From the NCBI GenBank assembly GCA_023544645.1, contig JAMJFO010000006.1, forward strand, positions 23,036 through 47,035: DNA of 24,000 bases. Reading direction: 5' to 3'. Origin of the DNA: Desulfobulbaceae bacterium (GTDB lineage Bacteria > Desulfobacterota > Desulfobulbia > Desulfobulbales > Desulfobulbaceae). The translations under genes and the position numbers were made by a program. The notes under the pieces are model-generated. The model saw nothing but the letters and a program-made list of their open reading frames with translations. It was not told the DNA's origin and made no database searches. Positions within the stretch are counted from its first letter, which is position 1; each line of letters opens with the position of its first letter. This document shows positions 1,193 through 18,208 of this stretch, in pieces.

Positions 1193-1269
1193 TGGTGGGC
1201 CTACCTGGACTCGAACCAGGGACCGACCGGTTATGAGCCGGTGGCTCTAGCCAACTGAGCTATAGGCCC
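1193..1269 (-). tRNA. tRNA with CAT anticodon: elongator Met or lysidine-dependent Ile2; not initiator
   Basis: The reverse complement is GGGCCTA-TA-GCTC-AGTTGGCTA-GAGC-C-ACCGG-CTCATAA-CCGGT-CGGTC-CCTGG-TTCGAGT-CCAGG-TAGGCCC-A-CCA. It folds as a perfect 77-nt cloverleaf with encoded CCA. The G1-C72 pair and the absence of a GGG/CCC anticodon stem exclude the initiator. The GGGCCT...AGGCCC acceptor stem resembles bacterial tRNA-Ile. Confidence 0.95.
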
Positions 1270-3473: not shown

Positions 3474-4361
3474 TTAGCTGCATACCCCGTGAGCATTTAC
3501 CATCCGCGCCTTGCCTGCGCCGTCCGCGCGGCATCTGCTGCTCCTGATATCCTCGGCGGTACGCATCACCTTGTTGTCGAGACAATTGAGCAGAACGGCA
3601 TCAATGCCGGCCCCGGCCAGCAGGGTGAGCATCCGGCCATGGAAACCGCTCTTCTGTTCCCGGGCCATCCCCTCTGAACCATTGCCCAGAGCCACGATGG
3701 TTTTGACCCTGTTGTCAAGCTGGCGGATCAGGTCGATGGCTTCAACCACCAAACCGACATCCGGCAGACCCCGGCTGACATACCAGGCCGCCGGATCAGG
3801 GCGGCAGGCCAGGACCGGGTCCAGGTAGAGCCGGGAAAAGGGCAGGCCTCTCAATGCCGCCTGCTCCAGAACCTCACTGGCCAACCGTATCCTGTCGTCG
3901 ATACCGGCCGTCGCCCCGCCGGATCGAACAAGCAGAACCACCAATCCGCTGCCATAATGGTTTGCGGCGCGCAGCGCCCGGTCCAGTTCATCATGGTTAG
4001 CGGTTACCGCATTAATAACAACCTGCGGTCCGCAGCGTTGCAGAACCTGTTCCTGCGCCAGGATATTGGCGGAAAAAAACAGGGGTACGTCGGTATGGTC
4101 CCGGATGACATCCACGACCCATGAAGTCCGCTGGCCCATTTCCCTGCCCGGCCCCAGGTTGACTGCCAGAGCCTGAGCTCCCGCGGCCAGCTGTTTTCTG
4201 ACAAGACCGGTGAGAAATGGTTGATCCTTCACCACCATTGACCTGTGAACCTGCTGATTGAGGACATGTATCGCGTCCCCGATCAGCATTGGTGCGGTTA
4301 AGCTGGCAATGGAATTCTCCTGATTGGCAACAAAATGTAGAGCTCGATTGTCCGGGGTCAT
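3474..4361 (-). CDS. Pterin-binding (DHPS / methyl-H4folate:corrinoid methyltransferase-like TIM barrel) domain protein, divergent
   Basis: 295-aa ORF with a strong RBS (AGGAGGAGG, 6 nt before the ATG). The motif order resembles MeTr/MetH pterin-binding domains: IGDAI, AGAQALAVNLG, VPLFFSAN, VINAVT, LYLDPV, ALGNGSEG. Several canonical positions are substituted, so the fold assignment is tentative. The gene lies directly behind a cobalamin riboswitch. Confidence 0.55.
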   Translation of the reverse strand: MTPDNRALHFVANQENSIASLTAPMLIGDAIHVLNQQVHRSMVVKDQPFLTGLVRKQLAAGAQALAVNLGPGREMGQRTSWVVDVIRDHTDVPLFFSANILAQEQVLQRCGPQVVINAVTANHDELDRALRAANHYGSGLVVLLVRSGGATAGIDDRIRLASEVLEQAALRGLPFSRLYLDPVLACRPDPAAWYVSRGLPDVGLVVEAIDLIRQLDNRVKTIVALGNGSEGMAREQKSGFHGRMLTLLAGAGIDAVLLNCLDNKVMRTAEDIRSSRCRADGAGKARMVNAHGVCS

Positions 4362-4438: not shown

Positions 4439-4499
4439 ATGTCCCTTTTACCCACAGATACGATAACGGCTTTCCCTGGTCCGCGGGGAAATCCTTTTT

Positions 4500-4728
4500 C
4501 CTGAAAGGCAGGTCTTCTGACTTTCCCGATCATGCAGCAGCCTTCCCGTCCATCCTTTTTGCAGACAAAGGCAGACAGTGGCACACCGGCCGGTATTTGG
4601 CACGCCAATATACCGGTCAGGCTGATGACCTGTTCTTTTTCCCATGAAAAAGAGGGATTACAGCGGCGGGCCCGTCCCCGATTCACACAGGGTTCCCTTT
4701 TCATCCTCGGCTGGAGGAACCTGTCAGG
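4500..4728 (-). promoter_or_regulatory. Cobalamin (B12) riboswitch aptamer
   Basis: On the minus strand: AAAAGGGAACCCTGTGTGAATCGGGGACGGGCCCGCCGCTGTAA (4701-4658), GCCACTG (4582-4576), GGGAAGGC (4547-4540) and the B12-box AGTCAGAAGACCTGCC (4522-4507). These occur in the order of the cobalamin riboswitch consensus. A closing P1 helix forms between CCTGAcAGGT (about 4728-4719) and ACCTGcctTTCAGG (4513-4500). Confidence 0.85.
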
Positions 4729-4743
4729 TCTTGTACAGGTCCT

Positions 4744-4874: not shown

Positions 4875-6395
4875 CTATAAAATATAATCGGCAGGCTGGA
4901 TATTGAAGACCGCGGGATGCAGACTTTCCAGAACCGGTCGGTTAAAACCCCGGGTGTGCTGATCCAGCGGTCCAAGATTGACAAGCTCTCCCTTGGCAAA
5001 CCCTCCCTGCTCAAGAGGCGTGAGCAACTGCACCCAAAGCTCCTTGCCGTCCCCTGATTCACCGCCGTATTTTGCCACCAAACCCATCTCATTGTTGTCA
5101 AGCCGGAGCAGGGTGCCGATGGGGTACACGCCGATCATGTTGATGAACACCTTGAGCAGCAGGGGATCGAAATCCTTGCCCGAACCCTCCTGCATAATGC
5201 CCAGGGCACGATCAGGACTGATGGGGAAAGTTCGGTAGACCCGCCTGGCGGTAATGGCATCAAAGACATCGGCAATACAGATTATCCGGCCAAAAAGGCT
5301 CAGAGGTTTTTTTCGCGGTGTCTGCGGATACCCGGACAGATCATATTTCAGATGATGTTCGAACGGGGGAAGCATCATCTCCGTTTTCCGTTGCTGTGAA
5401 GCCTTCAGCAGGATAATCTGCCGGACGCTGTAGATGGAATGATTCCGCATCTCTTTGAATTCATGTTCAGACAGTTTGCCCGGCTTGTTGAGGATTTTCT
5501 TGGGCACATCAATCTTGCCAAGGTCGTGAAACAGGGCGCTGAGGCTCAGCGATTCAAGCTGATTCTTATTCAAGCCGATACGACTGCCCAGGCACATGGA
5601 CAAAATGGCCACGTTCAGCGAATGGGTGAAGGTATAATCGTCGTAATCACGGATAGTGCTGAGGCTCAAAAGAACATTGCTGTCATCCATGACCGTATCG
5701 ATCATGATATGGACCATGCGCAATGCTTTTTTTATGCTCGCATTTTTATCGTTTGAAACTTTTTGCGAGACTTCCTGGAGGGAATTCAGTGCATACCCGT
5801 ATGCCTGAAGGGCTTTTTGTCTTTTATCCTGATCTTTGTCTACCTGTACAGGTTCTCTGTCCAGGTCTTTCTGCCGGTGTTCCTCTCCAATGGCAACGGC
5901 CTCTTCCAGTTCCGTATCGGAAAGCGGAATCGGATCGACCCAGGCATACTCAGCCGAGCTTACCTGTGCTTCCAGCCAGTCAGCGGGATTCTCCTCATGG
6001 AGGCACCGGCCCAGAAGACGGGCAAACGATGCGACATCCTTCAGCGGAGCATCAACTGCTGAAGGAAAAAAACGGAGTCCTTTTATCCCCCGCTTCTCAA
6101 AGAATACCAGCATGGTATTTATCAGGGCGGCGAATTTGGAAGAGTGCGGAACCTTTTCCAGCTGCAGGTAAAACCGGCCGGATGAGGCGAAAAGGGTAAT
6201 TTCGTCATCCTCCCGGAACAGTTTCTCAATGGTGATGACAAAATTTTCAACAGCGGAGACAAGCACGTGATTGTTATCTCCATAGACCTTGGCGGAACTG
6301 ATCAGCATGTGCAGACAATAGAGAAACTGCAGGCCATCTCCATCGGAGAAGTCTTTTGCCTGCACGGTCTGATTGACAGGAGGGATGGTATTCAT
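4875..6395 (-). CDS. HD-GYP domain phosphodiesterase (predicted c-di-GMP hydrolase) with an uncharacterised N-terminal module
   Basis: 506-aa ORF. It has the HD motif FHDLGK (H290/D291, nt 5528-5523), HHLKYDLSGYP (GYP at aa 355-357) and the C-terminal region typical of HD-GYP proteins. The start ATG overlaps the upstream gene's stop in ATGA (6392-6395). Confidence 0.9.
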   Translation of the reverse strand: MNTIPPVNQTVQAKDFSDGDGLQFLYCLHMLISSAKVYGDNNHVLVSAVENFVITIEKLFREDDEITLFASSGRFYLQLEKVPHSSKFAALINTMLVFFEKRGIKGLRFFPSAVDAPLKDVASFARLLGRCLHEENPADWLEAQVSSAEYAWVDPIPLSDTELEEAVAIGEEHRQKDLDREPVQVDKDQDKRQKALQAYGYALNSLQEVSQKVSNDKNASIKKALRMVHIMIDTVMDDSNVLLSLSTIRDYDDYTFTHSLNVAILSMCLGSRIGLNKNQLESLSLSALFHDLGKIDVPKKILNKPGKLSEHEFKEMRNHSIYSVRQIILLKASQQRKTEMMLPPFEHHLKYDLSGYPQTPRKKPLSLFGRIICIADVFDAITARRVYRTFPISPDRALGIMQEGSGKDFDPLLLKVFINMIGVYPIGTLLRLDNNEMGLVAKYGGESGDGKELWVQLLTPLEQGGFAKGELVNLGPLDQHTRGFNRPVLESLHPAVFNIQPADYIL

Positions 6396-8194
6396 TTTAC
6401 TTTTTCCAGGGCGAACTGGCAGGCCATGCGTATATCCGGCCGCAGACTCCTGACCCCCTTTTGCAGTACTGCCAATGCCTCTTCGGTCCCCAGAATCTTC
6501 AGGGCAATGGCTGAACCTTTTTTATGCACGGAGTTTATATTGCTGAACATTTGCGTCAATTTGCTCTCCATCAGGATCTGCTGCAACAGCTTGACCGACC
6601 GGAACGAGCCGCATTGGGAGAGCGCCTTATAATATTCGAACATGTGTGCATGCTCAATGCCTTCCGTCACAGCCTGTTCAAGATAACGCAGCAGCAGGGC
6701 CTCCGCCTCCTCGGGCTGGGCCCGGGAAAGAAGAATGGTCAGCAGCCTGCCGACGATGACATCATCTTCATCGTTCAACAGGTGATACAAGGCAGCAAAA
6801 TCAGGGGTTGACGCATGGGTGAGATATCCGCTGAGCCCGGCTCTCCTGACTTCCACTGAAGCGTGCCGGGTCATCTGCAGGCTGATTTTTTCCCCGGCCA
6901 TGCTGCCGAGATCCTCAACGACCGGGAACAGCAGGAGATTGATGTTTTCATCCGACTGCGCAAGAAGGGTATTGAATGCGTCGGGATCTTTTCTGGCCTT
7001 GCCGGCTATAAGTTCATACAGCTCGTTGCGGACATCAATATTGTCCGTACCGATGCTGCCCATCAGAGGACCGAGGGTGAAGATGATATCCGGAGTAAGC
7101 ATCCGGACAACATGCCAGAGAAATTTCTGATGCTCCTTGAAAAGAGTGGTCACCAGGAGCGGATTGTTGACCCAGGAGAGTTCCGTCCAATGTTCCGGCA
7201 GAGACAGCGAAGTGATAAAACTGTCCACCAGGTCCAGGGTCCACGGCCTGATCGCCTTGATCCGGTTCCTGATAGTCAGCACATTACTGCAGAGTTTATA
7301 GGCTAGGTGAAAATTCCCCTTGTTCAGGGTATCAAAAAAAACGGCCTCCAGGAACTTCAGAACCTGGGTGAAATGCAATTTGTTTTTCTGAGAGATGAGG
7401 ATAATGAGCAGGATCTCAATGATATCATTGGTATAGTCCGTCCGCTCCTCTTCTTCCACATAGGAGCGGAGGATTGCCTCCTCCTCAGGGGTTATCGCAA
7501 GAATTTTCAGCGCCTGTTCCATCCGCAGGAGATTGGTGACTGTTTCGCTCCGGGCAGGGGACTGGTCCTGGGCGGCAGTTGCTTCCGTTCCGGTTGTTTC
7601 GGCAATGGTGTTGACGGTTTTCGTCCTGGAATTGTCCGGCCCTGGTGCATCAGGCCTGTCGACGGCTGCGGCGGCAGACTCATCAGGCGCGGCCTTGAGC
7701 GATGCCAGATCAAAATTAAATCCCTCCAGGGCAAAAAGATCAACCTCCTCATACTCAAGATGCTGAAAATCGGCCTGCCAGAGAGAGGTGACTATATCGC
7801 CGCCCGATTCGTCCCCGGCGCTTCTGTGGCGATTGAGTATCCTGAACAACTGTGCTATCTCGACCGTGTCGATCCCCTGAAAAAAATCGAGACGAATGAC
7901 CCCGTCCCGGGTAAGAAGATAGGCTGGATTATTTTCTTCCGGCGGCCCGGCAAAAATTTTCTCCCCTTCATAGATCAGACTATTTTTTTCAATACCAAGG
8001 GACAGCTCTCCGTAGCTCGCAAGAAATGCTGCCAGCTGATTGGCGAATTTTTCGAGATTTGTCCGGCTGAAGACATGGTCTTCCGGATACAGCGAGTAGG
8101 ACTTGAAGGCGGCAGTGAAGGCCTGGATGGTTTTCAGGACAGCCTGCAGCTCTTCATCCTGCCCTGGTCTCTGTTTCACACTGGCTGAGGTCAC
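6392..8194 (-). CDS. Hypothetical protein with C-terminal HEAT/PBS-lyase-like repeats, co-transcribed with the HD-GYP gene
   Basis: 600-aa ORF with a GTG start at 8194-8192, preceded by GGCGGTGA 7 nt upstream. The central Ala/Pro/Thr-rich segment is probably disordered. The C-terminus has repeats of the form ...VEVRRAGLSGYL...LLNDEDDVIVGRLL... and ...GSAIALKILGTEEALAVLQKGVRSLRPDIRMACQFAL. The N-terminal ~110 aa resemble the N-terminus of the downstream HD-GYP protein. Confidence 0.75.
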   Translation of the reverse strand: MTSASVKQRPGQDEELQAVLKTIQAFTAAFKSYSLYPEDHVFSRTNLEKFANQLAAFLASYGELSLGIEKNSLIYEGEKIFAGPPEENNPAYLLTRDGVIRLDFFQGIDTVEIAQLFRILNRHRSAGDESGGDIVTSLWQADFQHLEYEEVDLFALEGFNFDLASLKAAPDESAAAAVDRPDAPGPDNSRTKTVNTIAETTGTEATAAQDQSPARSETVTNLLRMEQALKILAITPEEEAILRSYVEEEERTDYTNDIIEILLIILISQKNKLHFTQVLKFLEAVFFDTLNKGNFHLAYKLCSNVLTIRNRIKAIRPWTLDLVDSFITSLSLPEHWTELSWVNNPLLVTTLFKEHQKFLWHVVRMLTPDIIFTLGPLMGSIGTDNIDVRNELYELIAGKARKDPDAFNTLLAQSDENINLLLFPVVEDLGSMAGEKISLQMTRHASVEVRRAGLSGYLTHASTPDFAALYHLLNDEDDVIVGRLLTILLSRAQPEEAEALLLRYLEQAVTEGIEHAHMFEYYKALSQCGSFRSVKLLQQILMESKLTQMFSNINSVHKKGSAIALKILGTEEALAVLQKGVRSLRPDIRMACQFALEKVK

Positions 8195-8435: not shown

Positions 8436-11400
8436 ATGCCCATGAAGACGTTTCGCAACAGCGAACAGATACAATCAGACGCCCTGCGAGCCAATCTTGC
8501 GGAAACCGCCGGCGAGGTGGTGGTTGATCCGGCGTTTCAGCCATGCCAGGAGGTTGTGGCAAATTATCAGGGTCTTTCGGCCAAGCTTGATCACCTGTTG
8601 CAGGAAATCCACCACCCCTTTCGCAACTGGAATTTTATCATCCCGGAACTCCGCGCCTTTGTCCTGAAAAATCTGAACCATTACCTGCGGCACCAGAAAG
8701 GGGCGGTGTGTTTTTCCCTCTTTTGCGGGATCTTTCTCGATGCCCTGGCCGACGGCCGCAAAAACGGCAAACTGGTAGCCATGGTGATAGAGGCCATGCT
8801 TGCCTATACAGATAAACTCATCAACTCCATCGACCAGGACGGCCTCAACAGTTACCAGCAGGAGTTCAATACATTTTTCAAAAAGCTGACCGTTCTCGAC
8901 GAGATTGACGGCCAGGTCATGATGTACATGGTCCAGGGGCATCACCCCATGAAAAAAATGGCCCTCAGACTGGTATCGTTCAGCGACGGCGATTCGCCTC
9001 TGACCTATGATTTTGAGCCCCCTGCCCGTCTGATGAAGAAAATCCTGTCGCTCAATTACCAATACTGGCTGAGCGAAGATGATCCTCTGCCCTGGTTCAT
9101 GGAAAAGTGCGGCGAGTTCTGCGAGGACTGGCAGGCCAGCAAATCATTCGCCGCCATATCCCATGAACAGCTGCACCGCTACCAAACGGAGCTCGACAGC
9201 ATCAAGATCGACGATGATCCCCTTGCCGCACTCCGCAGAATCCTGAAACTCCCGAACCACATGGACATTGTCCGCCTGTACCGGGAAATACCCAACAAGC
9301 TGGCCCTGGAAAGCGAAGGCTACTCCCCGTTCATTGAAAACCGGAAACTGCTTTTCCTCTTCCGGATCATGGATACATCAGGTCTCCACCTGATCCACGA
9401 GGAAACGCTGCGGGAAATAAACCGGAGTCTTGTCCAGCTCATCCGCAAGCAGTCCTTTGAACAGATCGAACAGTTTTTTGTCACCACCTTCCAGCTGCTC
9501 AAGGCCAATGTCCGGCGTTATCCCCATACCTCTCTGCAGTGTATCCAGGTCATCGGCGGCGAGGTTTTCAAACGGGGCAATTCACGCCTTGTCGAAGCTT
9601 TTTTATGGGAAACCGTCCGTTTCGGCTTTCAATACGCCAATGTCATGGGTGTTGATGAAGACTGGCAGCCCATAACCAATCCGGCCCACCTGGCAAACAT
9701 CCGGGTCTGGCTCAACCTGATCATGCAGGAGCCCAAATGGTGTTCAACCCTGTTTTCCGCCCTGATCATCAACCTGAAGCTTTCCGGAACCTGTGTCAAA
9801 GATACAGATCTTTTTCAACGTGATATCACCGAATTACTAAATCATCCCATCGAGCCTATCTATAACCTGGCCAAACAGTTCACCAAGCTGATGCCGGTTT
9901 TTTTCAACGAGATCGGCGCGGAGGGCGAACTGCGTGATGTTTCCACCGAGCTGGATGAACTGCATAACCGTCGGGACGTCATTATCCATTTTCTGCGCAA
10001 GCAGAGCCATGTCGAATCGAGCAATCTTATCGTCGACTTTATCGAGGCGATTTTTACATTCTGGCTCAACTGCGATAAGGAGGCTCTCCGCCCCTTTCTT
10101 CCGGACGAGATATATCGGCAGCTGCAATCAACCGGCCCCTTTATTGATGAACAGCATATCCTGACCAACCGTATCCGCAATGATCTCAAGTTTCGCAAGA
10201 CAAAACATATCCTGCAATGGAAAGCTGAAGATCGCGAGACCTATCTTGAACGTCAACAGGATATTTCCCCGGTGGAGCGGCGCCGTTTTGAACTGCTGGT
10301 CAGGATGTTCAAACTCCTGCACCACAAGTACAATCTCGGCCTGCAGGAACTGCGCAACGAGCTGCACCAGGCAAGTCAGAGTGGTTTCCCCGAACTGGAG
10401 CATCTTCTGGAAATTCTTGACGACTGTGATACCTATACCTGCCTGGGGGCGGTGGTGGACCATCTTGAGCAGTTGAAGGAGATCATCCTCAGCCCGGAAA
10501 AATTCCCCCCCAGAGAGGAGATCTATCACAAACGTCATATCGCCGTTGACATCCCCTCGGTATACGGGCGCTACAGTGAACGGAAATTCGACGCCTTGGG
10601 TCTCACCTTCCGCCTGGAAAACCTGGCCAACATCTATCTGGAACGGCTGTCGGACACCATCAACCTGACCTTCATCACCCAGGCGACCTTTATCCGGATC
10701 ACCCGGTGCCTGAAGCTTTATATCCGGGCGCTCAACGTGGACGGCATAAGCAGCAGAAAACTGGATACCTACGTCAGCTTTCTGGCTTCATCCATCGGGA
10801 TCAAACGGTTTTCCTATACGCAGTACCTTGATATTTTCCGCGGCATGTCCGAAAGTATCAAGGATATAATCTACGCCTATTACACCAATGTCCACCAGAA
10901 CAACCTGTCAATCATCATTCCCCAGATCGGCGAGGAAAATCTGCTAACCAAGTACCGCCCCCACTGGGATGAACAGGAACTGTCGGTCACCATCCACAGG
11001 CTGTCGGAAACATTTTTCCGCGACCTCATCGCCACCACTTTCGGCCTCCAGCACCTGGATAACTTCATCACCAGGATCATGCAGACCCTGGAGGCGCAGA
11101 AGGACATCCTCGACGAAAACGATGTCGACCTGCTGATGACTTATAATCCCGAAATGACCATCAGCTCTCTGTACGACGAAAACCTGCGCACCCACAATCT
11201 CATCCATCTGGGCAACAAGGGATTCAATCTCATGGTAATGGCCGGTGACGGCAAACCTGTGCCCCCGGCCTTTGTCATCACCACGGAAATATTCCGCTGC
11301 TGGTCGGCGGTGCGGCGTTTCGGCCGGGCCAGGGATGAATTCATGCAGCGGGTCCGCAATTCAATCAACGGCCTGGAAAAGCTCACCGGCATGATATTCG

Positions 11401-12689
11401 GTGCGCCCGAAAATCCACTGCTGCTTTCGGTCCGTTCCGGATCCGCCATGTCCATGCCGGGCATGATGTCCACCATCCATAACGTCGGCCTGAATGAGGA
11501 TCTGGTCAACGAATATGTCCAGAAAACGGGCCGGGGGTACTTTGCCTGGGACAATTACCGGCGCTTCCTCCAGTCCTGGGCAATGGCCCAGGGCGTTGAC
11601 CGCGAGGAATTCCAGGAATTGATGAATGCCCATAAGCAGCGCTACAACGTTTATCTGAAAAGGGAATTTTCCCCTTTCGAGATGCAGGAACTGGCCCTGG
11701 AGTATAAAAAACTGGTCGATGCAAAGAGCCTGATCGTGCCTGATGACCCGTGGCTCCAACTCATCGGGGCCGTCGAGATGGTCCTGGATTCATGGCACAC
11801 AACCAAGGCCCACGAATACCGGCAGCTCATGGGCCTGTCCGAGGATTGGGGCACGGCAGTGATCGTCCAGGCCATGGTCTACGGCAACCTGGGCCAGAAC
11901 TCGGGCAGCGGGGTTCTCTTTACCGCCCACCCCTACCGCAAGGTCCGCCGGGTGGCGCTCTGGGGTGATTATGCCTCCGGCGATCAAGGGGAGGATATTG
12001 TTTCCGGCCTGGTTACCAGCCAGCCGATATCGGTGGAGCAGGCCCAGATCGATGGCCGGTCAGAGGAAAACAGTCTGGAAAAAAGGTTTCCCGATATTTA
12101 TGAAAAGCTCCTGGAAATCTCCCGGGACCTGGTCTACAATAAAGGATGGAATCCCCAGGAGATAGAGTTCACCTTTGAAGGGCCGGAAGCGGAAAAACTC
12201 TATATCCTCCAGACCAGGGACATGATAACCATCAAGGCCATGGAACGCTTCAATGTCTTTGCCGACAACGGCGCGGTGCAGCCATTCAAACTCGGCAAGG
12301 GGATCGGAGTGAGCGGCAGCGCCCTGAGCGGCAGGGCGGTATTTTCAGAAAGCAATATCAAGCAGTTGCGCCGGGACGATCCGGAAACATCGCTCATCCT
12401 CATCCGACAGGATACCGTCCCCGAGGATATCCGGGAAATATCCATGGCCGACGGACTGCTGACCTCCCGCGGCGGGCAGACTTCCCATGCCGCGGTCGTG
12501 GCCACCCGCCTGGAGAAAACCTGCGTGGTCGGCTGCCGGGATCTGCAGGTCTACGAATCCGAGGAATACGCGGAGATCGAGGGGCACCGCATAATGTTCG
12601 GCGATCCCATTTCCATTGACGGACGATCAGGGACACTCATCAGGGGCATGCACCCGGTCCGGGAAGAGGTTCACATCCTCCCGCTGTGA
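8436..12689 (+). CDS. PPDK/PEP-synthase-like phosphotransferase: ~915-aa unassigned N-terminal region, ATP-grasp nucleotide-binding domain and phosphohistidine swivel domain; no PEP/pyruvate TIM barrel
   Basis: 1417-aa ORF. From about aa 920 it follows the pyruvate phosphate dikinase N-terminal half. Matching motifs are LGNKGFNLMVMAGDGKPVPPAFVITTE, LLLSVRSGSAMSMPGMMSTIHNVGLN, GTAVIVQAMVYGNLGQNSGSGVLFTAHP, GEDIVSG, LYILQTR and LTSRGGQTSHAAVVATR. The catalytic-type His is H1351 (nt 12486-12488). The ORF ends 66 aa after that His. Confidence 0.9.
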   Translation: MPMKTFRNSEQIQSDALRANLAETAGEVVVDPAFQPCQEVVANYQGLSAKLDHLLQEIHHPFRNWNFIIPELRAFVLKNLNHYLRHQKGAVCFSLFCGIFLDALADGRKNGKLVAMVIEAMLAYTDKLINSIDQDGLNSYQQEFNTFFKKLTVLDEIDGQVMMYMVQGHHPMKKMALRLVSFSDGDSPLTYDFEPPARLMKKILSLNYQYWLSEDDPLPWFMEKCGEFCEDWQASKSFAAISHEQLHRYQTELDSIKIDDDPLAALRRILKLPNHMDIVRLYREIPNKLALESEGYSPFIENRKLLFLFRIMDTSGLHLIHEETLREINRSLVQLIRKQSFEQIEQFFVTTFQLLKANVRRYPHTSLQCIQVIGGEVFKRGNSRLVEAFLWETVRFGFQYANVMGVDEDWQPITNPAHLANIRVWLNLIMQEPKWCSTLFSALIINLKLSGTCVKDTDLFQRDITELLNHPIEPIYNLAKQFTKLMPVFFNEIGAEGELRDVSTELDELHNRRDVIIHFLRKQSHVESSNLIVDFIEAIFTFWLNCDKEALRPFLPDEIYRQLQSTGPFIDEQHILTNRIRNDLKFRKTKHILQWKAEDRETYLERQQDISPVERRRFELLVRMFKLLHHKYNLGLQELRNELHQASQSGFPELEHLLEILDDCDTYTCLGAVVDHLEQLKEIILSPEKFPPREEIYHKRHIAVDIPSVYGRYSERKFDALGLTFRLENLANIYLERLSDTINLTFITQATFIRITRCLKLYIRALNVDGISSRKLDTYVSFLASSIGIKRFSYTQYLDIFRGMSESIKDIIYAYYTNVHQNNLSIIIPQIGEENLLTKYRPHWDEQELSVTIHRLSETFFRDLIATTFGLQHLDNFITRIMQTLEAQKDILDENDVDLLMTYNPEMTISSLYDENLRTHNLIHLGNKGFNLMVMAGDGKPVPPAFVITTEIFRCWSAVRRFGRARDEFMQRVRNSINGLEKLTGMIFGAPENPLLLSVRSGSAMSMPGMMSTIHNVGLNEDLVNEYVQKTGRGYFAWDNYRRFLQSWAMAQGVDREEFQELMNAHKQRYNVYLKREFSPFEMQELALEYKKLVDAKSLIVPDDPWLQLIGAVEMVLDSWHTTKAHEYRQLMGLSEDWGTAVIVQAMVYGNLGQNSGSGVLFTAHPYRKVRRVALWGDYASGDQGEDIVSGLVTSQPISVEQAQIDGRSEENSLEKRFPDIYEKLLEISRDLVYNKGWNPQEIEFTFEGPEAEKLYILQTRDMITIKAMERFNVFADNGAVQPFKLGKGIGVSGSALSGRAVFSESNIKQLRRDDPETSLILIRQDTVPEDIREISMADGLLTSRGGQTSHAAVVATRLEKTCVVGCRDLQVYESEEYAEIEGHRIMFGDPISIDGRSGTLIRGMHPVREEVHILPL

Positions 12690-13841: not shown

Positions 13842-16556
13842 TTACTGCGAGTCCCCATGCTTGTCAACCTGACTTTCCCTGGGAAAAATTTCAAGTTCCG
13901 GCGCCCAGGCGGTCCACTGCGCATCTTTTTGGTCATGCAGCTGAAAATGATCCCCATTCCGGGCCGGCTCCCCCATCTCTTCACTTTCCGGGGTTGCAAA
14001 TGAGATTCCCCCAACGATCAGGGCTTCCAGCGATTCGGCATCAAGCTGCAACCCGGAAAAAAGACCCCACGAAGCATTCATTCCGCTGGCCAGCCAGAAC
14101 TTTGTCCCGCTGTATACCAGTTTCGCGTATCCGGGATAAATATTCACCCTGACCAGCACTTTCTGCGCAGTCGCCGACAGGTTGTATCCGGTGACCTGTC
14201 CGACCTGGACCTGCCGGTAATACACGGGATTGCCGATATTGAGGAAACCGAGCCGCGGCGTCTCCAGAATAATATTCAACCCCCTGGATCCATGGGCTTC
14301 CGCCGAGTCAGGATACAGGATGAAATCCGAGCATAATTCGCCCTCGCCCGGCACCAGGTTGATGAAAGGACCGGTCAGAATGGTCGCAATATGGCGCACA
14401 CCGGTGAAATCAATACTCGGCCTGATCAGCTCCAGGCGGCTTTTTTCCCGGAACAGGGAAGCAGCCTCCTTCCTGACAGTTGCCGTGGCAACAACCTCTT
14501 TCATCTCCGGGCCGAAGCGAACGTCCCTGATGGAACCGATTTCCATGCCCTGGTATTTGATGGCGGTATTGTTTCCGACTCCTTCCGCCCGGTTCAGCCG
14601 GAGCGTGATGGTAACGCGGTCATGCTGCAGGGCGCTGGTATAATCCGCATGCAGGGTGAAATTGTGCCCGGCGCCGACAGAGTCCCCGGTTTCCGGAGTG
14701 ACAAAGGATATACCGCCGGAGAGAATGGAGGCGACACTGTCGGCCTGAATAGCAATGCCGCGAAGCCCCGCATCCACCGAAAAACCGGAACTATTATAAA
14801 ACAGGGTGGACCCGTTGATCAGGCCGGTGTATTTTTCATATACCAGGATGTCAAAGAGAACATTCCGCAAGTCATCGCTGAGACGGTGTCCGATCACCTC
14901 CCCGACCGGAACCTTCCTGTACAGGACAGGCGAACCGACCTCATAATGCAGATCAGCCGTTGACTGCAGCTGAAAAACCAATCCGGGAGGATGAAGGCCG
15001 CGAATACTGCGGGTTGCTTCTGCCAGGCTGGAGAAAAGATTAAAAGAGCTGCCCTCGGCGGCAGGCTCAGCAACAGGTTTATCCCCGGCCTTCGGGGTGG
15101 TGAAGGAAATCCCTCCCCTGAGCAGGGATTCCACCGTGCCGACATTGAGCCTGACCCCTGAAAAACCGGCATCAAACTTGATGCCGCTGCTGTTCCAGAA
15201 CACACTGTTTTCCTTTACCAGCTGGGTGTATTTATCGTATATCAAAATGTCGGTATGCACTGTCTGCTGGTCCTTGCCAAATCTTATTTCATAGACTTCC
15301 CCCACCTTCATCCGGTTGAACAGCACCGGCGAACCAGCCTCAACAAACCCGTTGTCCTCGGCAATAAGAGTAAAATGTTTGCCGTTTCTGAGAACCTGCC
15401 TGGGCATTGCTTCCTTTTCGACGATGAAATTATCCTTAAAAACTCCCTGCCCGGGCACGAACGTGATATATGGACCGCTGATCAGGGTGTCGATCTGATT
15501 GATCCCGGTCAGGGAAACCTCCGGGCGGACCACCCAGAAACGGGTGCCCTTTTTCAGGATGGATTCAGCCCGCGGGTCCAGAAGAATTTCTGCGGTAACC
15601 GAAAGGTTTTCATCATTGTTCACCCGTATTTTCCGGACAATCCCGGCCTCGATTCCCCGGAACATGACCTTGGTCTTGCCTTCAGTAATGCCTTCGCCGG
15701 AGGCGAGCTGCAGGGTCATGGGCAGCCAGTATTCGGCGGATTCATAGTCCGGATAGAGTTTATAAACCATTCCGCTGAGGGCCGGCGGGCTGGTATCGGC
15801 AAGAGGTTCCGGCGTGCCGCAGGAGATGCCGCCGTAGACCAGGGCGGCCAGGGACTCCAGCTTCAAGCTGAACCCTGATTGCAGGTTGCCTTCAAAGGAA
15901 AATCCGCTGGAATTCCAGAAGCGGGTGCCCATCTGGATGAGATGGCTGAACTCAGGTTCGATATACAGGTCGATCAGCACCGATCTGTCTTCACCAAGGT
16001 AGTAGTCCAACACCTTGCCGATCTTCAGGTTCCTGGTATAGACCGGCGAGTCCTTCTGCAGCGAATAGAGCGCGTCAGACATGAGTGTTATATGCAGACC
16101 AGGGCTGTCCGGTGGAAGGGTGGGGGCTTCCGGGAGGCCTTCGAATCGGGTAGCAAACTCGGTCGAACTCCCCGGCTGGACGGCAATATAACTGCCCGAG
16201 AGGATTGTTTCCAGTCCGCTCACCCTGCCGGCAGAGATCCGCGGCCTGACGATCCAGAACTTGGTATCGCTGACCAATCCGCGCCGGGCCTTCTTTTCCA
16301 CCTTGACGGTCAGGTTCACTCCCTGGAGATCTTCGTCAACCGTTATCTGTTCGACAATGCCGACAGCAACTCCTTTATACATTACCTGGGTTTTTCCCGC
16401 GGTAATCCCCTCGGCATTCTCAAAATGAATGGTGCAGGTTATTCCGGCATCCCGGTAACTGGCGTACAGCAGCCATCCGGCGATACACAGGGCAACGAGC
16501 GGCAATACCCAGATTGGCGAAAGTCCGCCGCCCTTTTTTATCACAGGTGATTCCAT
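13842..16556 (-). CDS. letB: PqiB/LetB-family MCE protein with seven tandem MCE domains
   Basis: I place the start at the ATG at 16556 (MESPVIKKGGGLSPIWVLPLVALCIAGWLLYASY, a PqiB-type N-terminal TM anchor), giving 904 aa. Seven repeats of the MCE signature are visible, e.g. AGKTQVMYKGVAVGIVEQI, DSPVYTRNLKIGKV, GKTKVMFRGIEAGIV, GSPVLFNRMKVGEV, GSPVLYRKVPVGEV, NTAIKYQGMEIGSI and GNPVYYRQVQVGQV. The track ORF extends to 16820, but that extension overlaps letA and has no homology. Confidence 0.9.
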   Translation of the reverse strand: MESPVIKKGGGLSPIWVLPLVALCIAGWLLYASYRDAGITCTIHFENAEGITAGKTQVMYKGVAVGIVEQITVDEDLQGVNLTVKVEKKARRGLVSDTKFWIVRPRISAGRVSGLETILSGSYIAVQPGSSTEFATRFEGLPEAPTLPPDSPGLHITLMSDALYSLQKDSPVYTRNLKIGKVLDYYLGEDRSVLIDLYIEPEFSHLIQMGTRFWNSSGFSFEGNLQSGFSLKLESLAALVYGGISCGTPEPLADTSPPALSGMVYKLYPDYESAEYWLPMTLQLASGEGITEGKTKVMFRGIEAGIVRKIRVNNDENLSVTAEILLDPRAESILKKGTRFWVVRPEVSLTGINQIDTLISGPYITFVPGQGVFKDNFIVEKEAMPRQVLRNGKHFTLIAEDNGFVEAGSPVLFNRMKVGEVYEIRFGKDQQTVHTDILIYDKYTQLVKENSVFWNSSGIKFDAGFSGVRLNVGTVESLLRGGISFTTPKAGDKPVAEPAAEGSSFNLFSSLAEATRSIRGLHPPGLVFQLQSTADLHYEVGSPVLYRKVPVGEVIGHRLSDDLRNVLFDILVYEKYTGLINGSTLFYNSSGFSVDAGLRGIAIQADSVASILSGGISFVTPETGDSVGAGHNFTLHADYTSALQHDRVTITLRLNRAEGVGNNTAIKYQGMEIGSIRDVRFGPEMKEVVATATVRKEAASLFREKSRLELIRPSIDFTGVRHIATILTGPFINLVPGEGELCSDFILYPDSAEAHGSRGLNIILETPRLGFLNIGNPVYYRQVQVGQVTGYNLSATAQKVLVRVNIYPGYAKLVYSGTKFWLASGMNASWGLFSGLQLDAESLEALIVGGISFATPESEEMGEPARNGDHFQLHDQKDAQWTAWAPELEIFPRESQVDKHGDSQ

Positions 16557-16653
16557 ACGTATTCCCGGTTCATTGATAAGCGGCCACAGGACTCCGCTAT
16601 AAATCCTGGCAAAAGCGCAATGCGTGGTTGCTCTGCCCCATGAGTATTTACAT

Positions 16654-17967
16654 TCATTGTTCCTGCATGTCCACCAGGTCCCAGAGCAGCCGCTGGTCAA
16701 AACTGATGGCGGCAAACATCGTGGCCAGGACCACACCAGTGAAAAAGACGGCGGCGGGGGCAACCTGGACAGTCGTGAAAAAACCGAAGTCAACCAGGGC
16801 GCAGAGCAGGGCGATGACAAAAATGTCGAGCATCGACCAGCGGCCTATGAACGCAATAAACCGGAACATAATCGATTTCTGGAGCAGCCTGGTCGCTCTC
16901 CTGAAATTGATGGAATAGAGCAGGACGCTCAGGCCGAGGATCTTGAAGACCGGCACCAGGATTGAGGCGCTTAAAATAATCAGGCCGATGGTGTGGGAGC
17001 CGTTCTGGAAAAAATAGATTATGCCGTCCAAGATGGTCGACTTTTCCGGCACGCCCAGAAACACCACCTCCATTATCGGCAGAAGGTTGGCAGGAAAAAA
17101 CAGGATCAGCGCGGTGAGCACCAGGGCCCAGGTCGTGCCGACGGAGTGCGCTATCCGCCAGTGGATTTTTGCCCCGCAGCGCGGACAAAAAAGCTGGTGC
17201 CCGGTAGCCGGCGGCTGTTCATGGCGGACGACCTTGTGGCAGGAGTGGCACTGCACCAGGCCCGATGTCATGGCCCTGGTGCCGATCATCCCCTTTGCCA
17301 GGTGCAGTGTCTCGGCAGGAGCCTTTGCCTCCTTGTCTCTTTCGGCCCGTAATTCCTCAATACGACGCCAGCAATACTGCCGGTCAAAAGTCGAGGATAT
17401 GCACGCCATGACAAGCACCAATCCCGCAAAACAGATAAACCCTGCCCCATAGGATATCCCGGTGGTGGGTTCCATTTTGATAATGGTCACCAGAATTGCG
17501 ATCAGATAGACCTCGGACATCCCCCATTCCTCGAAATGCTGATACCAGCGCAGCAGCAGGGGCAAGGCACCGGTATAAATCCGCCGCGAAATCCCCAGGG
17601 TGACACCAAACAGCATACCCAGCTTGAGGAGGGGAAAAATCTGGGCGGTCAGGACAACCACCAGGGAAACAACACCGTATTGCTGCCGGTACAGGGCTCT
17701 GATGCTGTCAAAGATCGAGCCGGCCTCATCCATCCCCAGCATGTCAAAGGTCAACAGGATCATGAAGTGCGCGGGAATGTACAGGATCAGACCGGTCAGG
17801 CTCAAGGCAAGAGTTCGATTGACCGTATCTTTGCGGGGGCTCCGCAGTTTGAACCGGCATCGCGGACAGAGCAGATGGCTGCCGTAGGGGACCTCCGCCT
17901 TTTCGGTAGCAACGATCATGTCACAGCCCGGGCAGACCAGTGGATCCTCGGCGGCAACGCTGTTCAT
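16654..17967 (-). CDS. letA: PqiA/LetA-family integral membrane protein (two PqiA modules, each with a CxxC...CxxC zinc ribbon)
   Basis: It has CPGCDMIV...CPRCRFKL and CHSCHKVV...CPRCGAKI, each followed by multi-TM regions. The ATG at 17967 (MNSVAAED...) is preceded by GGGAAG. The track start at 17988 is a TTG, which is an alternative. Confidence 0.88.
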   Translation of the reverse strand: MNSVAAEDPLVCPGCDMIVATEKAEVPYGSHLLCPRCRFKLRSPRKDTVNRTLALSLTGLILYIPAHFMILLTFDMLGMDEAGSIFDSIRALYRQQYGVVSLVVVLTAQIFPLLKLGMLFGVTLGISRRIYTGALPLLLRWYQHFEEWGMSEVYLIAILVTIIKMEPTTGISYGAGFICFAGLVLVMACISSTFDRQYCWRRIEELRAERDKEAKAPAETLHLAKGMIGTRAMTSGLVQCHSCHKVVRHEQPPATGHQLFCPRCGAKIHWRIAHSVGTTWALVLTALILFFPANLLPIMEVVFLGVPEKSTILDGIIYFFQNGSHTIGLIILSASILVPVFKILGLSVLLYSINFRRATRLLQKSIMFRFIAFIGRWSMLDIFVIALLCALVDFGFFTTVQVAPAAVFFTGVVLATMFAAISFDQRLLWDLVDMQEQ

Positions 17968-18208
17968 TTCTTCCCGCTGAAAAAACAACTGAAGTTCAAC
18001 GGCATGCCCTCCCGGTAAACAGTTATTCGATTCACTGGCCCGCTATCTCCCTTCTGCGCTTTTATGGCAGCACCGGCAGCCGGATTACCTTCTCACCTGA
18101 TTTGGCAACAAGTTACAACAACCTGCCTGAAAAACCTCACAAAAAGCAAGCATTGCTTAAACAAATACACCTCATAATCATAATCGATGCCGACATGTGC
18201 GCCGATGG

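What the first reader, a model, noticed from the sequence alone, without database searches (positions are those of the whole stretch)
8436..12689. 1417-aa 'half-dikinase': PPDK ATP-grasp and phosphohistidine domains fused to an unassignable ~915-aa N-terminal region, with no PEP/pyruvate barrel
Residues from about 920 to 1417 carry every landmark of the nucleotide-binding and swivel-His domains of pyruvate phosphate dikinase / PEP synthase. This includes the GGxTSHAA phosphocarrier motif (His1351, nt 12486-12488), with the Thr two residues upstream retained. The protein stops 66 aa after the His, so the C-terminal TIM barrel that binds PEP/pyruvate is missing. In its place, about 915 residues precede the ATP-grasp. 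By composition they look helical, and I could match no motif in them. Characterised enzymes that reuse this ATP -> His~P -> acceptor chemistry on other substrates put a dedicated substrate-binding domain elsewhere in the chain (rifampin phosphotransferase, glucan water dikinase, phenylphosphate synthase). By analogy, the N-terminal region would be a new acceptor-binding module, and the acceptor could be a small molecule, polymer or protein. I do not know of a characterised family with this architecture, but I cannot search to confirm that.
Basis: partly seen in the sequence, partly recalled or inferred. Interest (0 to 1): 0.75.

Follow-up and report, generated by a model that had tools for sequence, protein, structure and literature searches.

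The report
Barrel-less dikinase partnered with GAPDH
This 1417-residue protein joins the ATP-using half of pyruvate phosphate dikinase to a large helical module with no known relative; across several bacterial phyla its gene sits next to a glyceraldehyde-3-phosphate dehydrogenase gene, which suggests an undescribed phosphoryl-transfer step or control point in lower glycolysis/gluconeogenesis.

Summary
ORF 8436-12689(+) encodes 1417 aa. Residues ~919-1406 align with PPDK residues 15-510 (E 2e-79). The carrier His is H1351 (nt 12486-12488), and the chain ends 66 aa later with no PEP/pyruvate barrel.

Residues 1-915 match nothing in Pfam, NCBIfam, PDB sequences or PDB folds. AlphaFold2 models them confidently (pLDDT 89) as an almost all-helical body with one beta-hairpin. 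Two stretches of this module are as conserved as the catalytic His motif and carry about 20 invariant polar residues, so it looks like a second active site.

The fusion is old and widespread: at least 582 species genomes, including Desulfobulbales, Desulfotignum, Syntrophobacteraceae, Thermodesulfobacterium, Thermodesulfovibrio/Nitrospiraceae, Magnetococcus and Miltoncostaeaceae. Databases label it PPDK or PEP synthase.

New here: the gene is coupled to GAPDH. Six of seven informative distant lineages have an unusual 402-453-aa GAPDH downstream (five of them within 0-109 bp). Two such GAPDHs picked without reference to the gene both have it 4-17 bp upstream. 45 of 82 Desulfobulbales-type loci have glgA-like-gap directly upstream. 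This window lacks that linkage.

Best guess, unproven: a swivelling-His dikinase working with GAPDH, possibly 3-PG + ATP + Pi <-> 1,3-BPG + AMP + PPi. The main rival is a VadK-like regulatory kinase.

The parts
8436..12689 (+). Whole gene 'X': 1417-aa barrel-less dikinase. An alternative start at Met3, nt 8442, gives the 1415 aa annotated in the identical NCBI protein.
8436..11180 (+). N-terminal module, aa 1-915. It is almost all alpha-helical, has no known homologue or fold match, and is the proposed second (acceptor-side) site.
   Evidence: AF2 pLDDT 88.9 / pTM 0.82; no Pfam, NCBIfam or PDB hit
9627..10076 (+). Conserved hot spot 1 of the N-terminal module, aa 398-547. Motifs: DTDLFQRDI, PVFFNEIGAEGELRDVST, IHFLRKQSHVES. 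Invariant residues: H418, D456, E496, G497, R500, D507, D514, R521, K522, H525.
   Evidence: window conservation 0.57-0.73
10503..10616 (+). Conserved hot spot 2, aa 690-727. This is the only beta-hairpin of the module (strands 693-701 and 706-714). Motif: IYxKRHIAxDIPSVYGRYxExKFDALGLTFRLE. Invariant residues: K699, H701, S708, G711. It contains the most conserved 30-aa window of the whole protein.
   Evidence: conservation 0.79
11190..12230 (+). PPDK-type ATP-grasp nucleotide-binding domain, aa ~919-1265. PPDK catalytic residues are retained: K22=K928, R92=R1000, G101=G1009, M103=M1011, R135=R1043, Q240=Q1145, D321->E1242, E323=E1244, Q335=Q1259, R337=R1261.
   Evidence: the residue list used for PPDK verification is in PMC13147460
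12291..12653 (+). Swivelling phosphohistidine (PEP-utilizers mobile) domain, aa ~1286-1406.
   Evidence: (2fm4 match, 2.2e-19)
12486..12488 (+). Codon of the phosphocarrier His1351 in GGQTSHAA. Thr1349 is two residues upstream.
   Evidence: near-invariant in the family alignment

Best explanation
X is a swivelling-histidine dikinase derived from PPDK.

Steps shown by homology. The C-terminal half keeps the complete machinery for the first PPDK partial reactions: ATP + Pi + E-His1351 -> AMP + PPi + E-His~P. The ATP-site residues and the residues I recall as forming the PPDK Pi site are all retained.

Steps that are inferred. In place of the lost PEP/pyruvate TIM barrel, a ~915-aa helical module of unknown fold, fused at the N-terminus, provides the second site onto which the His domain swings. 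That site would be built from two highly conserved segments, aa ~400-530 and the hairpin 693-714, which are rich in invariant His, Asp, Glu, Arg and Lys.

Linkage to GAPDH. The gene forms a tight and evolutionarily old two-gene unit with a phosphorylating GAPDH. In most lineages this is a special 402-453-aa GAPDH downstream, within 0-109 bp in most of them. In Desulfobulbales it is an ordinary gap plus a glgA-like gene directly upstream. In one clade it sits beside pgk-tpiA.

Proposed reaction. From this I infer that the acceptor/donor is the GAPDH product/substrate pair: 3-phosphoglycerate + ATP + Pi <-> 1,3-bisphosphoglycerate + AMP + PPi. The labile acyl phosphate would be handed directly to or from GAPDH. 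My arithmetic from textbook hydrolysis energies puts this reaction near equilibrium (about 0 to +5 kJ/mol), against about +19 kJ/mol for PGK in the same direction. It could therefore drive gluconeogenesis or glycogen synthesis at low energy charge. Run in reverse, it could make ATP from AMP + PPi, which are the two by-products of sulfate activation in the sulfur-cycle anaerobes that carry the gene.

In this window the gene stands alone with no gap neighbour, but it keeps every invariant residue.
For: Dikinase half. PPDK_N and PEP-utilizers are found. The half aligns at 2.3e-79 with PPDK residues 15-510. It superposes at 2.9 A rmsd on 1kbl. The catalytic residues K928, R1000, G1009, R1043, Q1145, E1244, Q1259, R1261 and H1351 are invariant or nearly invariant across the family.

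No barrel. The chain ends 66 aa after the His. PF02896 is absent from the protein, from the window, and from every neighbourhood listed.

N-terminal module as a site. It has about 22 invariant residues, mostly polar. Its conservation peaks of 0.79 and 0.73 exceed the 0.71 of the His-motif window. The fold prediction is confident. The fusion is retained down to 25-30% identity.

GAPDH coupling. 45 of 82 Desulfobulbales-type loci have type I gap a median of 149 bp upstream on the same strand, and 44 of 82 also have a glgA-like gene. A long GAPDH lies downstream in Magnetococcus (+109 bp), Syntrophobacteraceae (+1 kb), and the clades of P0296 (+35 bp), P0304 (+54 bp), P0198 (+14 bp) and P0271 (overlapping stop/start, with gap upstream and pgk-tpiA-secG divergent).

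Reverse test. Two long GAPDHs chosen without reference to X both have X 17 and 4 bp upstream.

The long GAPDHs look active. They keep the catalytic Cys and His and both phosphate-site motifs, and they score as type I GAPDH.

Precedent. GWD has an all-alpha acceptor-side domain onto which a His domain swivels (PMC13553574).

Carrier organisms. Named carriers are mostly sulfate or sulfur anaerobes.
Against: There is no biochemical evidence at all, and the acceptor is inferred from gene order only.

PGK is encoded next to the cluster in one clade, so X is not a replacement in pgk-less genomes.

A 915-aa module is very large for binding a three-carbon acid.

One clade has an N-terminal hemerythrin fusion and no GAPDH neighbour, which looks more sensory or regulatory.

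The only characterised barrel-less PPDK, VadK, appears to be regulatory (PMC13400623).

The window itself and its closest relatives lack any gap neighbour.

I could not inspect model coordinates, so I have not shown that the invariant residues cluster in 3D or that the His domain can reach them.

In the AF2 model the His domain sits on the ATP-grasp, as in 1kbl. That says nothing about a second docking site.
Confidence: 0.35

Rival explanations
1. X is a regulatory kinase or phosphotransfer protein, like VadK. It autophosphorylates His1351 from ATP and then passes the phosphate to, or allosterically controls, a protein partner. The partner could be the adjacent GAPDH or other enzymes of lower glycolysis or glycogen metabolism, or a PTS-Ntr component. 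The large helical N-terminal module would act as a protein-docking or sensing scaffold.
For: VadK is a barrel-less PPDK that autophosphorylates and interacts with metabolic enzymes (PMC13400623). The module is a large alpha-helical body, and its only fold neighbours are protein-binding solenoids, weakly. One clade has an N-terminal hemerythrin fusion. In Syntrophobacteraceae the gene sits right after rpoN-hpf-ptsN-rapZ-EIIA. The partner GAPDH carries lineage-specific insertions that could be docking elements. PGK coexists with X.
Against: Invariant clusters of His, Asp, Glu, Arg and Lys that persist at 25-30% identity, and are more conserved than the catalytic His motif, are more typical of an active site than of a docking surface. 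X scores below the VadK/short-PPDK model cutoff (NF004531, 299 vs 456) and has 915 extra residues. Tight translational coupling with a single metabolic enzyme resembles enzyme pairs such as gap-pgk.
Confidence: 0.25
2. X is a non-homologous functional PPDK or PEP synthase. The helical N-terminal module would bind pyruvate/PEP in place of the TIM barrel, so the database names would be functionally right. The link to GAPDH would simply reflect shared membership of gluconeogenesis.
For: The dikinase half is closest to true PPDK: 33% identity in the Foldseek alignment to 1kbl, with TIGR01828 the best model. Neighbours are central-carbon genes: sucAB-lpd, gap, pgk-tpiA.
Against: None of the barrel's PEP/pyruvate/Mg ligands (R561, R617, E745, D769) has a counterpart, because the fold is entirely different. 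The gene is tightly coupled to GAPDH, which is not the next step after PEP formation. A genome survey that checked full PPDK/PEPS active sites describes Magnetococcus marinus as relying on a dikinase-plus-PEP-carboxykinase route (PMC13147460); X would fail that survey's barrel-residue check, so a canonical pyruvate dikinase probably coexists with X there.
Confidence: 0.1
3. X is a bacterial alpha-glucan (glycogen) dikinase, analogous to plant GWD. The helical module would present glycogen chains to the phospho-His.
For: A glgA-like GT5 gene lies two genes upstream in 44 of 82 Desulfobulbales-type loci. GWD is of similar size and uses an all-alpha central domain as its acceptor side (PMC13553574).
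Against: The glgA linkage is confined to Desulfobulbales, whereas the family-wide partner is GAPDH. No CBM or any carbohydrate-binding domain was detected. Domain order differs: GWD is central-His-ATP, X is module-ATP-His. There is no sequence similarity to any PDB entry.
Confidence: 0.07
4. X phosphorylates some other small molecule, either unrelated to GAPDH or only indirectly related. Examples are glyceraldehyde, glycerate, a cofactor or a xenobiotic, as with rifampin phosphotransferase, PigC, phenylphosphate synthase or HpeHI.
For: The superfamily repeatedly recruits new acceptor modules, as shown by the weak hits to Rph, PigC, RedH and HpeI. The module has the look of an active site.
Against: It would leave the two-way, multi-phylum GAPDH coupling unexplained. 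The gene has a housekeeping-like, single-copy distribution and is very strongly conserved: 78-81% identity where neighbouring genes are 34-60%.
Confidence: 0.15

Closest known systems
Pyruvate, phosphate dikinase (PPDK, EC 2.7.9.1; e.g. Clostridium symbiosum 1KBL/1DIK)
   Same: The ATP-grasp nucleotide-binding domain, linker and swivelling phospho-His domain are the same. They come in the same order, at about 33% identity and 2.9 A rmsd. The GGxTSHAA motif and K22, R92, G101, R135, E323, Q335 and R337 are all retained.
   Different: X lacks the whole C-terminal PEP/pyruvate TIM barrel and its ligands, and has 915 extra N-terminal residues of unrelated fold. It scores 376.7 against the TIGR01828 cutoff of 843.45.
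VadK (M. tuberculosis Rv1127c) and other short 'PPDK' proteins (NCBIfam NF004531)
   Same: It is also a PPDK derivative that ends after the His domain. It was shown to autophosphorylate its His with ATP/Mg (PMC13400623).
   Different: VadK has about 490 aa and only two domains, with no N-terminal module. X scores below its model cutoff (299 vs 456). VadK occurs in actinomycetes and is linked to the methylcitrate cycle, not to GAPDH.
Glucan, water dikinase (StGWD1)
   Same: It is a large dikinase of roughly 1400 aa, in which a swivelling His domain shuttles between an ATP-binding domain and an all-alpha-helical 'central' domain that has no clear PDB equivalent (PMC13553574).
   Different: Domain order differs: CBM45-CBM45-central-His-ATP in GWD, module-ATP-His in X. 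X has no CBM45. No sequence similarity was detected. A structural comparison with 9HA9/9QVI could not be run here.
Rifampin phosphotransferase, PigC/RedH, phenylphosphate synthase and HpeHI-type dikinases
   Same: They use the same ATP -> His~P -> acceptor chemistry with a dedicated, family-specific acceptor module. X gives weak HMM and Foldseek hits to them.
   Different: In these enzymes the acceptor domain is inserted between the ATP-grasp and the His domain, or sits on a separate subunit. Scores are far below their cutoffs, and the ATP-grasp of X is of the PPDK type, not the Rph type.
Phosphoglycerate kinase (a functional analogue under the best hypothesis)
   Same: It would make or use 1,3-bisphosphoglycerate next to GAPDH. 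X occupies the gene position next to gap that pgk commonly holds.
   Different: There is no sequence or fold relationship. X would use ATP/AMP + Pi/PPi through a phospho-enzyme instead of ATP/ADP by direct transfer. This comparison is entirely hypothetical.

Membership tests
Pyruvate, phosphate dikinase (TIGR01828 / EC 2.7.9.1) | N-terminal ATP-grasp nucleotide-binding domain with K22, R92, D321/E323 and R337 | tested here: met
   PF01326 at 4.7e-29. K928, R1000, E1242/E1244 and R1261 are aligned and conserved.
Pyruvate, phosphate dikinase (TIGR01828 / EC 2.7.9.1) | Central swivelling domain with the catalytic His in GGxTSHAA | tested here: met
   PF00391 at 5.7e-17. H1351 lies in GGQTSHAA.
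Pyruvate, phosphate dikinase (TIGR01828 / EC 2.7.9.1) | C-terminal PEP/pyruvate-binding TIM barrel (PF02896; R561, R617, E745, D769) | tested here: not met
   The chain ends 66 aa after the His, at about PPDK residue 520. There is no PF02896 hit. No barrel gene was found in the window or in any related locus listed.
Pyruvate, phosphate dikinase (TIGR01828 / EC 2.7.9.1) | Score at or above the curated equivalog cutoff | tested here: not met
   376.7 bits against a cutoff of 843.45.
PEP synthase (TIGR01418 / NF005057) | Score at or above the curated cutoff, and a C-terminal PEP-binding barrel | tested here: not met
   68-77 bits against cutoffs of 598-740. No barrel.
VadK / short barrel-less PPDK (NF004531) | PPDK ATP-grasp plus His domain, ending without a barrel | tested here: met
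VadK / short barrel-less PPDK (NF004531) | Two-domain protein of about 490-534 aa that scores above the model cutoff | tested here: not met
   X has 1417 aa, with a conserved 915-aa N-terminal module. It scores 299.1 bits against a cutoff of 456.
VadK / short barrel-less PPDK (NF004531) | ATP/Mg-dependent autophosphorylation of the catalytic His | not testable with these tools
   This needs purified protein. Every residue required for it is conserved.
Glucan, water dikinase | N-terminal CBM45 starch-binding domains | tested here: not met
   No Pfam domain of any kind in aa 1-915. The model is all-alpha, with no beta-sandwich.
Glucan, water dikinase | Domain order central(alpha)-His-ATP-binding | tested here: not met
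   The order in X is module-ATP-grasp-His. The GWD order is taken from PMC13553574.
Glucan, water dikinase | Homology of the helical acceptor-side domain to the GWD central domain (9HA9/9QVI) | tested here: inconclusive
Rifampin phosphotransferase / PigC-RedH type dikinases | Acceptor-binding domain inserted between the ATP-grasp and the C-terminal His domain, and a score above the model cutoff | tested here: not met
   18-40 bits against cutoffs of 999-1700. There is no insertion between the two domains.
PTS Enzyme I | His domain plus HPr-binding subdomain plus C-terminal PEP-binding barrel | tested here: not met
   Only a weak His-domain hit: TIGR01417 at 14.5 bits against a cutoff of 341.7. 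No barrel.

The most novel reading that the evidence does not exclude
X together with its partner GAPDH forms a previously unknown module of central carbon metabolism. X would be a '3-phosphoglycerate, phosphate dikinase', a phospho-histidine enzyme that interconverts 3-PG and 1,3-BPG using ATP + Pi / AMP + PPi at an active site of entirely new fold, and that channels the acyl phosphate to or from GAPDH. This would be a dikinase counterpart of PGK, as PPDK is of pyruvate kinase. It would let sulfate-reducing and other energy-limited anaerobes drive gluconeogenesis at low energy charge, or regenerate ATP directly from the AMP and PPi produced by sulfate activation.
Probability: 0.3. Interest if true: 0.9.

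Novelty: new variant of a known kind. Interest (0 to 1): 0.72.

Why it matters
Lower glycolysis and gluconeogenesis are treated as fully catalogued. Yet here is a 1400-residue enzyme found in at least several hundred species of environmentally important anaerobes, including cable bacteria, sulfate reducers, syntrophs, Thermodesulfovibrio and Magnetococcus. It is better conserved than its neighbours and is wired to GAPDH across phyla, but it has never been characterised.

It is currently annotated as pyruvate phosphate dikinase or PEP synthase, which it cannot be in the canonical sense. Metabolic reconstructions of these organisms may therefore be miscounting a PEP-forming step.

If the acceptor is 3-PG/1,3-BPG, this adds a new reaction to central metabolism and a new piece to PPi-based energy economy. 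If the protein is regulatory, it extends the newly described VadK idea, that PPDK has been repurposed as a kinase, to a far larger and older family.

Either way, the N-terminal module is a confidently modelled fold with no solved relative and a well-marked candidate active site. Cultured carriers exist, so the question can be tested directly.

Tried and rejected
- A profile of the conserved core (A2) and the single N-terminal sequence, searched against PDB sequences, returned only coiled-coil or stathmin noise.
- Pfam scans of 13 diverse cores and NCBIfam scans of three N-terminal regions gave no consistent hit.
- The window's own neighbours were checked for conservation: the HEAT-like and HD-GYP pair upstream, nadA convergent downstream, and pqiAB. 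They are shared only with the four closest relatives, so I rejected them as functional partners.
- No Rfam family reached its gathering score upstream of X, in the window or in seven distant loci. The promoter and terminator scan was at background level.
- I tried to read NAD or NADP preference of the long GAPDH from the residue equivalent to Asp32. The alignment is ambiguous by one residue, so I make no claim.
- A split PPDK with the barrel on a separate gene is rejected, because PF02896 appears in no neighbourhood examined.
- The second AF2 job (aa 218-1417) was meant to show where the His domain docks. It docks on the ATP-grasp as in 1kbl.
- Literature searches for this architecture, for a dikinase-GAPDH operon, or for a 'phosphoglycerate dikinase' found nothing relevant.

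Full report
**1.

The window contains an uninterrupted ORF at 8436..12689 (+) of 1417 aa. The identical protein is in NCBI from a Desulfobulbaceae MAG, annotated from the second Met as 1415 aa and named "PEP-utilizing enzyme" (P0001). The motif GGQTSHA begins at aa 1346. His1351 is the CAT codon at nt 12486-12488, Thr1349 is present, and 66 residues follow the His.

Pfam finds PPDK_N (968-1265, 4.7e-29) and the PEP-utilizers mobile domain (1320-1399, 5.7e-17), but no PEP-utilizers_C barrel. Against PDB sequences, residues 919-1406 align end to end with residues 15-510 of Clostridium symbiosum PPDK (E 2.3e-79). The protein therefore stops in the linker that precedes the TIM barrel in PPDK.

The best NCBIfam models are PPDK (TIGR01828, 376.7 bits against a cutoff of 843) and the short mycobacterial "PPDK" (NF004531, 299 against 456). 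Both fall well below their cutoffs.

**2. The dikinase half looks catalytically complete**

I mapped the PPDK residues from the alignment onto the family alignment of 58 sequences reaching down to about 25% identity:

| PPDK residue | X residue |
|---|---|
| K22 | K928 (invariant) |
| R92 | R1000 |
| G101 / M103 | G1009 / M1011 |
| R134 / R135 | R1042 / R1043 |
| Q240 | Q1145 |
| T253 | S1158 |
| D321 / E323 | E1242 / E1244 |
| Q335 / R337 | Q1259 / R1261 |
| T453 / H455 | T1349 / H1351 |

K22, R92, D321, E323, R337 and H455 are among the residues a recent genome survey used to validate PPDKs (PMC13147460). The barrel residues from the same list (R561, R617, E745, D769) have no counterpart here.

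An AF2 model of aa 218-1417 (pLDDT 89.1, pTM 0.76) superposes on 1kbl/1dik at 2.9-3.6 A over about 540 columns. That is the conformer with the His domain docked on the ATP-grasp. It fits the PEP-facing conformers poorly, at 10-15 A.

Retention of R135, G101, M103 and R337 suggests a Pi-dependent, PPi-forming reaction as in PPDK. These are the residues I recall as forming the PPDK Pi site, so this last point is inference.

**3. The N-terminal 915 residues are a real module of unknown kind with the marks of an active site**

- *Sequence searches.* There is no Pfam or NCBIfam hit at E<=1 for the window protein or for diverse relatives. There is no PDB sequence hit for the single sequence or for a 13-sequence profile of the core.
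- *Conservation.* Across the family, 22 N-terminal positions are invariant and most are polar. They include H418, D456, E496, R500, D507, D514, R521, K522, H525, K631, Y632, K699, H701, S708, R862 and D875. In 30-residue windows, the hairpin segment 698-727 is the most conserved stretch of the entire protein (0.79), and 488-517 scores 0.73. The phospho-His window scores 0.71.

A docking scaffold would not be expected to keep such a set of charged residues at 25-30% identity. I read it as a second catalytic or ligand site. This is inference, because I could not access model coordinates to test 3D clustering.

**4. The family is large, old and misnamed**

- The N-terminal region alone retrieves more than 2245 proteins. 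Of the top 120, all but a few shorter entries are 1412-1444 aa and carry both Pfam domains.
- In the 1.84-billion-protein library of cluster representatives there are 605 matches. Full-length members of 1335-1540 aa reach down to 28% identity.
- Named carriers are Desulfobulbaceae, cable bacteria (Electrothrix, Electronema), Desulfocapsa, Desulfurivibrio, Desulfolithobacter, Desulfogranum, Desulfotignum, Syntrophobacteraceae, Thermodesulfobacterium geofontis, Thermodesulfovibrio, Nitrospiraceae, Magnetococcus marinus MC-1 and Miltoncostaeaceae. Most are anaerobes of the dissimilatory sulfur cycle.
- Source annotations read "pyruvate phosphate dikinase", "phosphoenolpyruvate synthase" or "PEP/pyruvate-binding domain-containing protein".
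- I found no paper describing the architecture.

**5. The main new finding is a family-wide link to GAPDH**

In the window itself the gene stands alone. A HEAT-like and HD-GYP pair lies divergently upstream, and nadA converges on it with 9 bp between the two stop codons. These neighbours recur only in the four closest relatives.

I clustered all neighbours across 82 loci that carry the gene (mostly Desulfobulbales). A type I GAPDH lies immediately upstream on the same strand in 45 loci, at a median gap of 149 bp. A glgA-like GT5 gene lies before it in 44.

Outside Desulfobulbales the partner is a distinctive long GAPDH of 402-453 aa, downstream on the same strand:

| Lineage | Position of the long GAPDH |
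|---|---|
| Magnetococcus | +109 bp |
| Syntrophobacteraceae | about +1 kb |
| P0296 clade | +35 bp |
| P0304 clade | +54 bp |
| P0198 clade | +14 bp |
| P0271 clade | start overlaps the stop of X; ordinary gap upstream; pgk-tpiA-secG divergent |

One further lineage was informative and lacks the GAPDH; it carries an N-terminal hemerythrin domain instead. One more contig ended at the gene and says nothing.

I then ran the reverse test. I picked two long GAPDHs from a search that did not involve X, one from an uncultured Desulfobacterota genome and one from Nitrospiraceae. Both have a 1376-1410-aa PPDK_N + PEP-utilizers gene 17 and 4 bp upstream.

The long GAPDHs keep the catalytic Cys (SCTT), the His, the TGAAKA motif, and the Arg and Thr residues of both phosphate sites. 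They score as type I GAPDH at 290-406 bits against a cutoff of 367. They are therefore most likely active on GAP/1,3-BPG.

**6. Mechanism proposed**

*Shown by homology.* ATP + Pi + E-His1351 -> AMP + PPi + E-His~P at the ATP-grasp.

*Inferred.* The His domain then swings to the conserved pocket of the N-terminal module. This is what the His domain does towards the barrel in PPDK and towards the all-helical central domain in GWD (PMC13553574).

*Inferred from gene order.* The acceptor is tied to the GAPDH reaction. The simplest chemistry that makes X and GAPDH consecutive is 3-PG + E-His~P <-> 1,3-BPG + E-His. Phospho-His to carboxylate transfer has a precedent in succinyl-CoA synthetase (my own knowledge). 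From textbook hydrolysis energies, the overall reaction 3-PG + ATP + Pi -> 1,3-BPG + AMP + PPi comes to about 0 to +5 kJ/mol. PGK in the same direction is about +19 kJ/mol, and the survey paper lists +11.5 kJ/mol for PPDK. This is my arithmetic.

Such an enzyme could pull gluconeogenesis and glycogen synthesis at low energy charge, which fits the glgA-gap-X arrangement. Run in reverse, it could regenerate ATP from AMP + PPi, the by-products of sulfate activation. Tight coupling to GAPDH, and the insertions in the long GAPDH, would make sense for channelling the labile 1,3-BPG.

I give this specific reaction about 0.3-0.35. I give the more general statement, that X is a phosphoryl-transfer enzyme functionally tied to the GAPDH step, about 0.7.

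**7. Rivals**

- *VadK-like regulatory kinase or phosphotransfer to a protein (0.25).* The only characterised barrel-less PPDK behaves this way (PMC13400623). The module is solenoid-like. One clade carries a hemerythrin sensor domain. In Syntrophobacteraceae the gene follows the PTS-Ntr cluster. PGK coexists with X.
- *Non-homologous PPDK, with pyruvate/PEP bound by the new module (0.1).*
- *Glycogen dikinase like GWD (0.07).* This is supported only by the Desulfobulbales-specific glgA neighbour.
- *Another small-molecule acceptor (0.15).*
- *A split PPDK with the barrel encoded elsewhere.* Rejected, because PF02896 appears in no neighbourhood examined.

**8. Comparison with known families**

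X works like the PPDK/PEPS/GWD/Rph class of swivelling-His dikinases. It is not a member of any defined family:

- It fails the PPDK and PEPS definitions, having no barrel and scoring below the cutoffs.
- It fails the VadK/short-PPDK model on score and carries 915 extra conserved residues.
- It differs from GWD in domain order and lacks CBM45.
- It differs from Rph and PigC in the position of the acceptor domain.

I class it as a new variant of a known kind: a known engine joined to a new second site and a new metabolic partner.

**9. Verdict**

The added GAPDH linkage makes the function directly testable in cultured carriers. Interest 0.72.

Noticed in passing
window 4490-4739 (-), upstream of ORF 3474..4361 (-): A cobalamin riboswitch (RF00174, 74.7 bits) precedes a pterin-binding methyltransferase-like gene of the MeTr/CODH-ACS methyltransferase type, which scores below the curated cutoffs.
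   Followed up: partly
window 4875..6395 (-) and 6392..8194 (-): A 600-aa HEAT-repeat-like protein overlaps by 4 nt with a 506-aa HD-GYP (HD_5) protein. The pair is transcribed divergently from the dikinase gene. It recurs only in the four closest relatives and evolves much faster (34-60% identity) than the dikinase (78-81%).
   Followed up: partly
window 12689 / 12699: The dikinase gene and the convergent nadA (quinolinate synthase) gene end 9 bp apart. No convincing intrinsic terminator lies between them.
   Followed up: partly
window 13842..17988 (-): A pqiA-pqiB pair, in which PqiB has seven MlaD domains. The mechanically called PqiB ORF overlaps pqiA by about 170 nt, so its true start is probably further downstream. 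pqiAB also lies near the dikinase gene in Desulfogranum (L002).
   Followed up: no
L091 6001-10623: One clade of the family (1540 aa) carries an N-terminal hemerythrin domain (PF01814) and has no GAPDH neighbour. This hints at O2, NO or iron sensing, or redox control, in that lineage.
   Followed up: no
L085/L086 4070-13278: In Syntrophobacteraceae the gene directly follows lptCAB-rpoN-hpf-ptsN-rapZ-EIIA(man)-GNAT, a position where, from memory, ptsH-ptsI follow this cluster in some Deltaproteobacteria. A long GAPDH follows about 1 kb downstream.
   Followed up: no
L084, L085, L088-L090, L092-L094 (genes downstream of X): The partner GAPDH is itself an uncharacterised, well-conserved subfamily of 402-453 aa. 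Members are more than 60% identical across Desulfobacterota and Nitrospirota. Several insertions are present, including about 40 residues before the WYDNE motif, and all catalytic and phosphate-site residues are kept.
   Followed up: partly
L047 5211-6833 and 43 other Desulfobulbales-type loci: The glgA-like GT5 gene upstream of gap-X scores below the GlgA cutoff (258.7 vs 328.45 bits) and is longer than typical GlgA (541 aa). It may not be an ordinary glycogen synthase.
   Followed up: no
family-wide: Nearly all named carriers are organisms of the dissimilatory sulfur cycle: sulfate reducers, sulfur disproportionators, cable bacteria and Magnetococcus. Their sulfate activation or APS chemistry produces or consumes AMP and PPi, which are the co-substrates of the reverse dikinase reaction.
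   Followed up: no
window 1196-1269 (-): A tRNA gene (RF00005, 68 bits) lies between the NIF3-family gene and the M48 peptidase/TPR gene.
   Followed up: no
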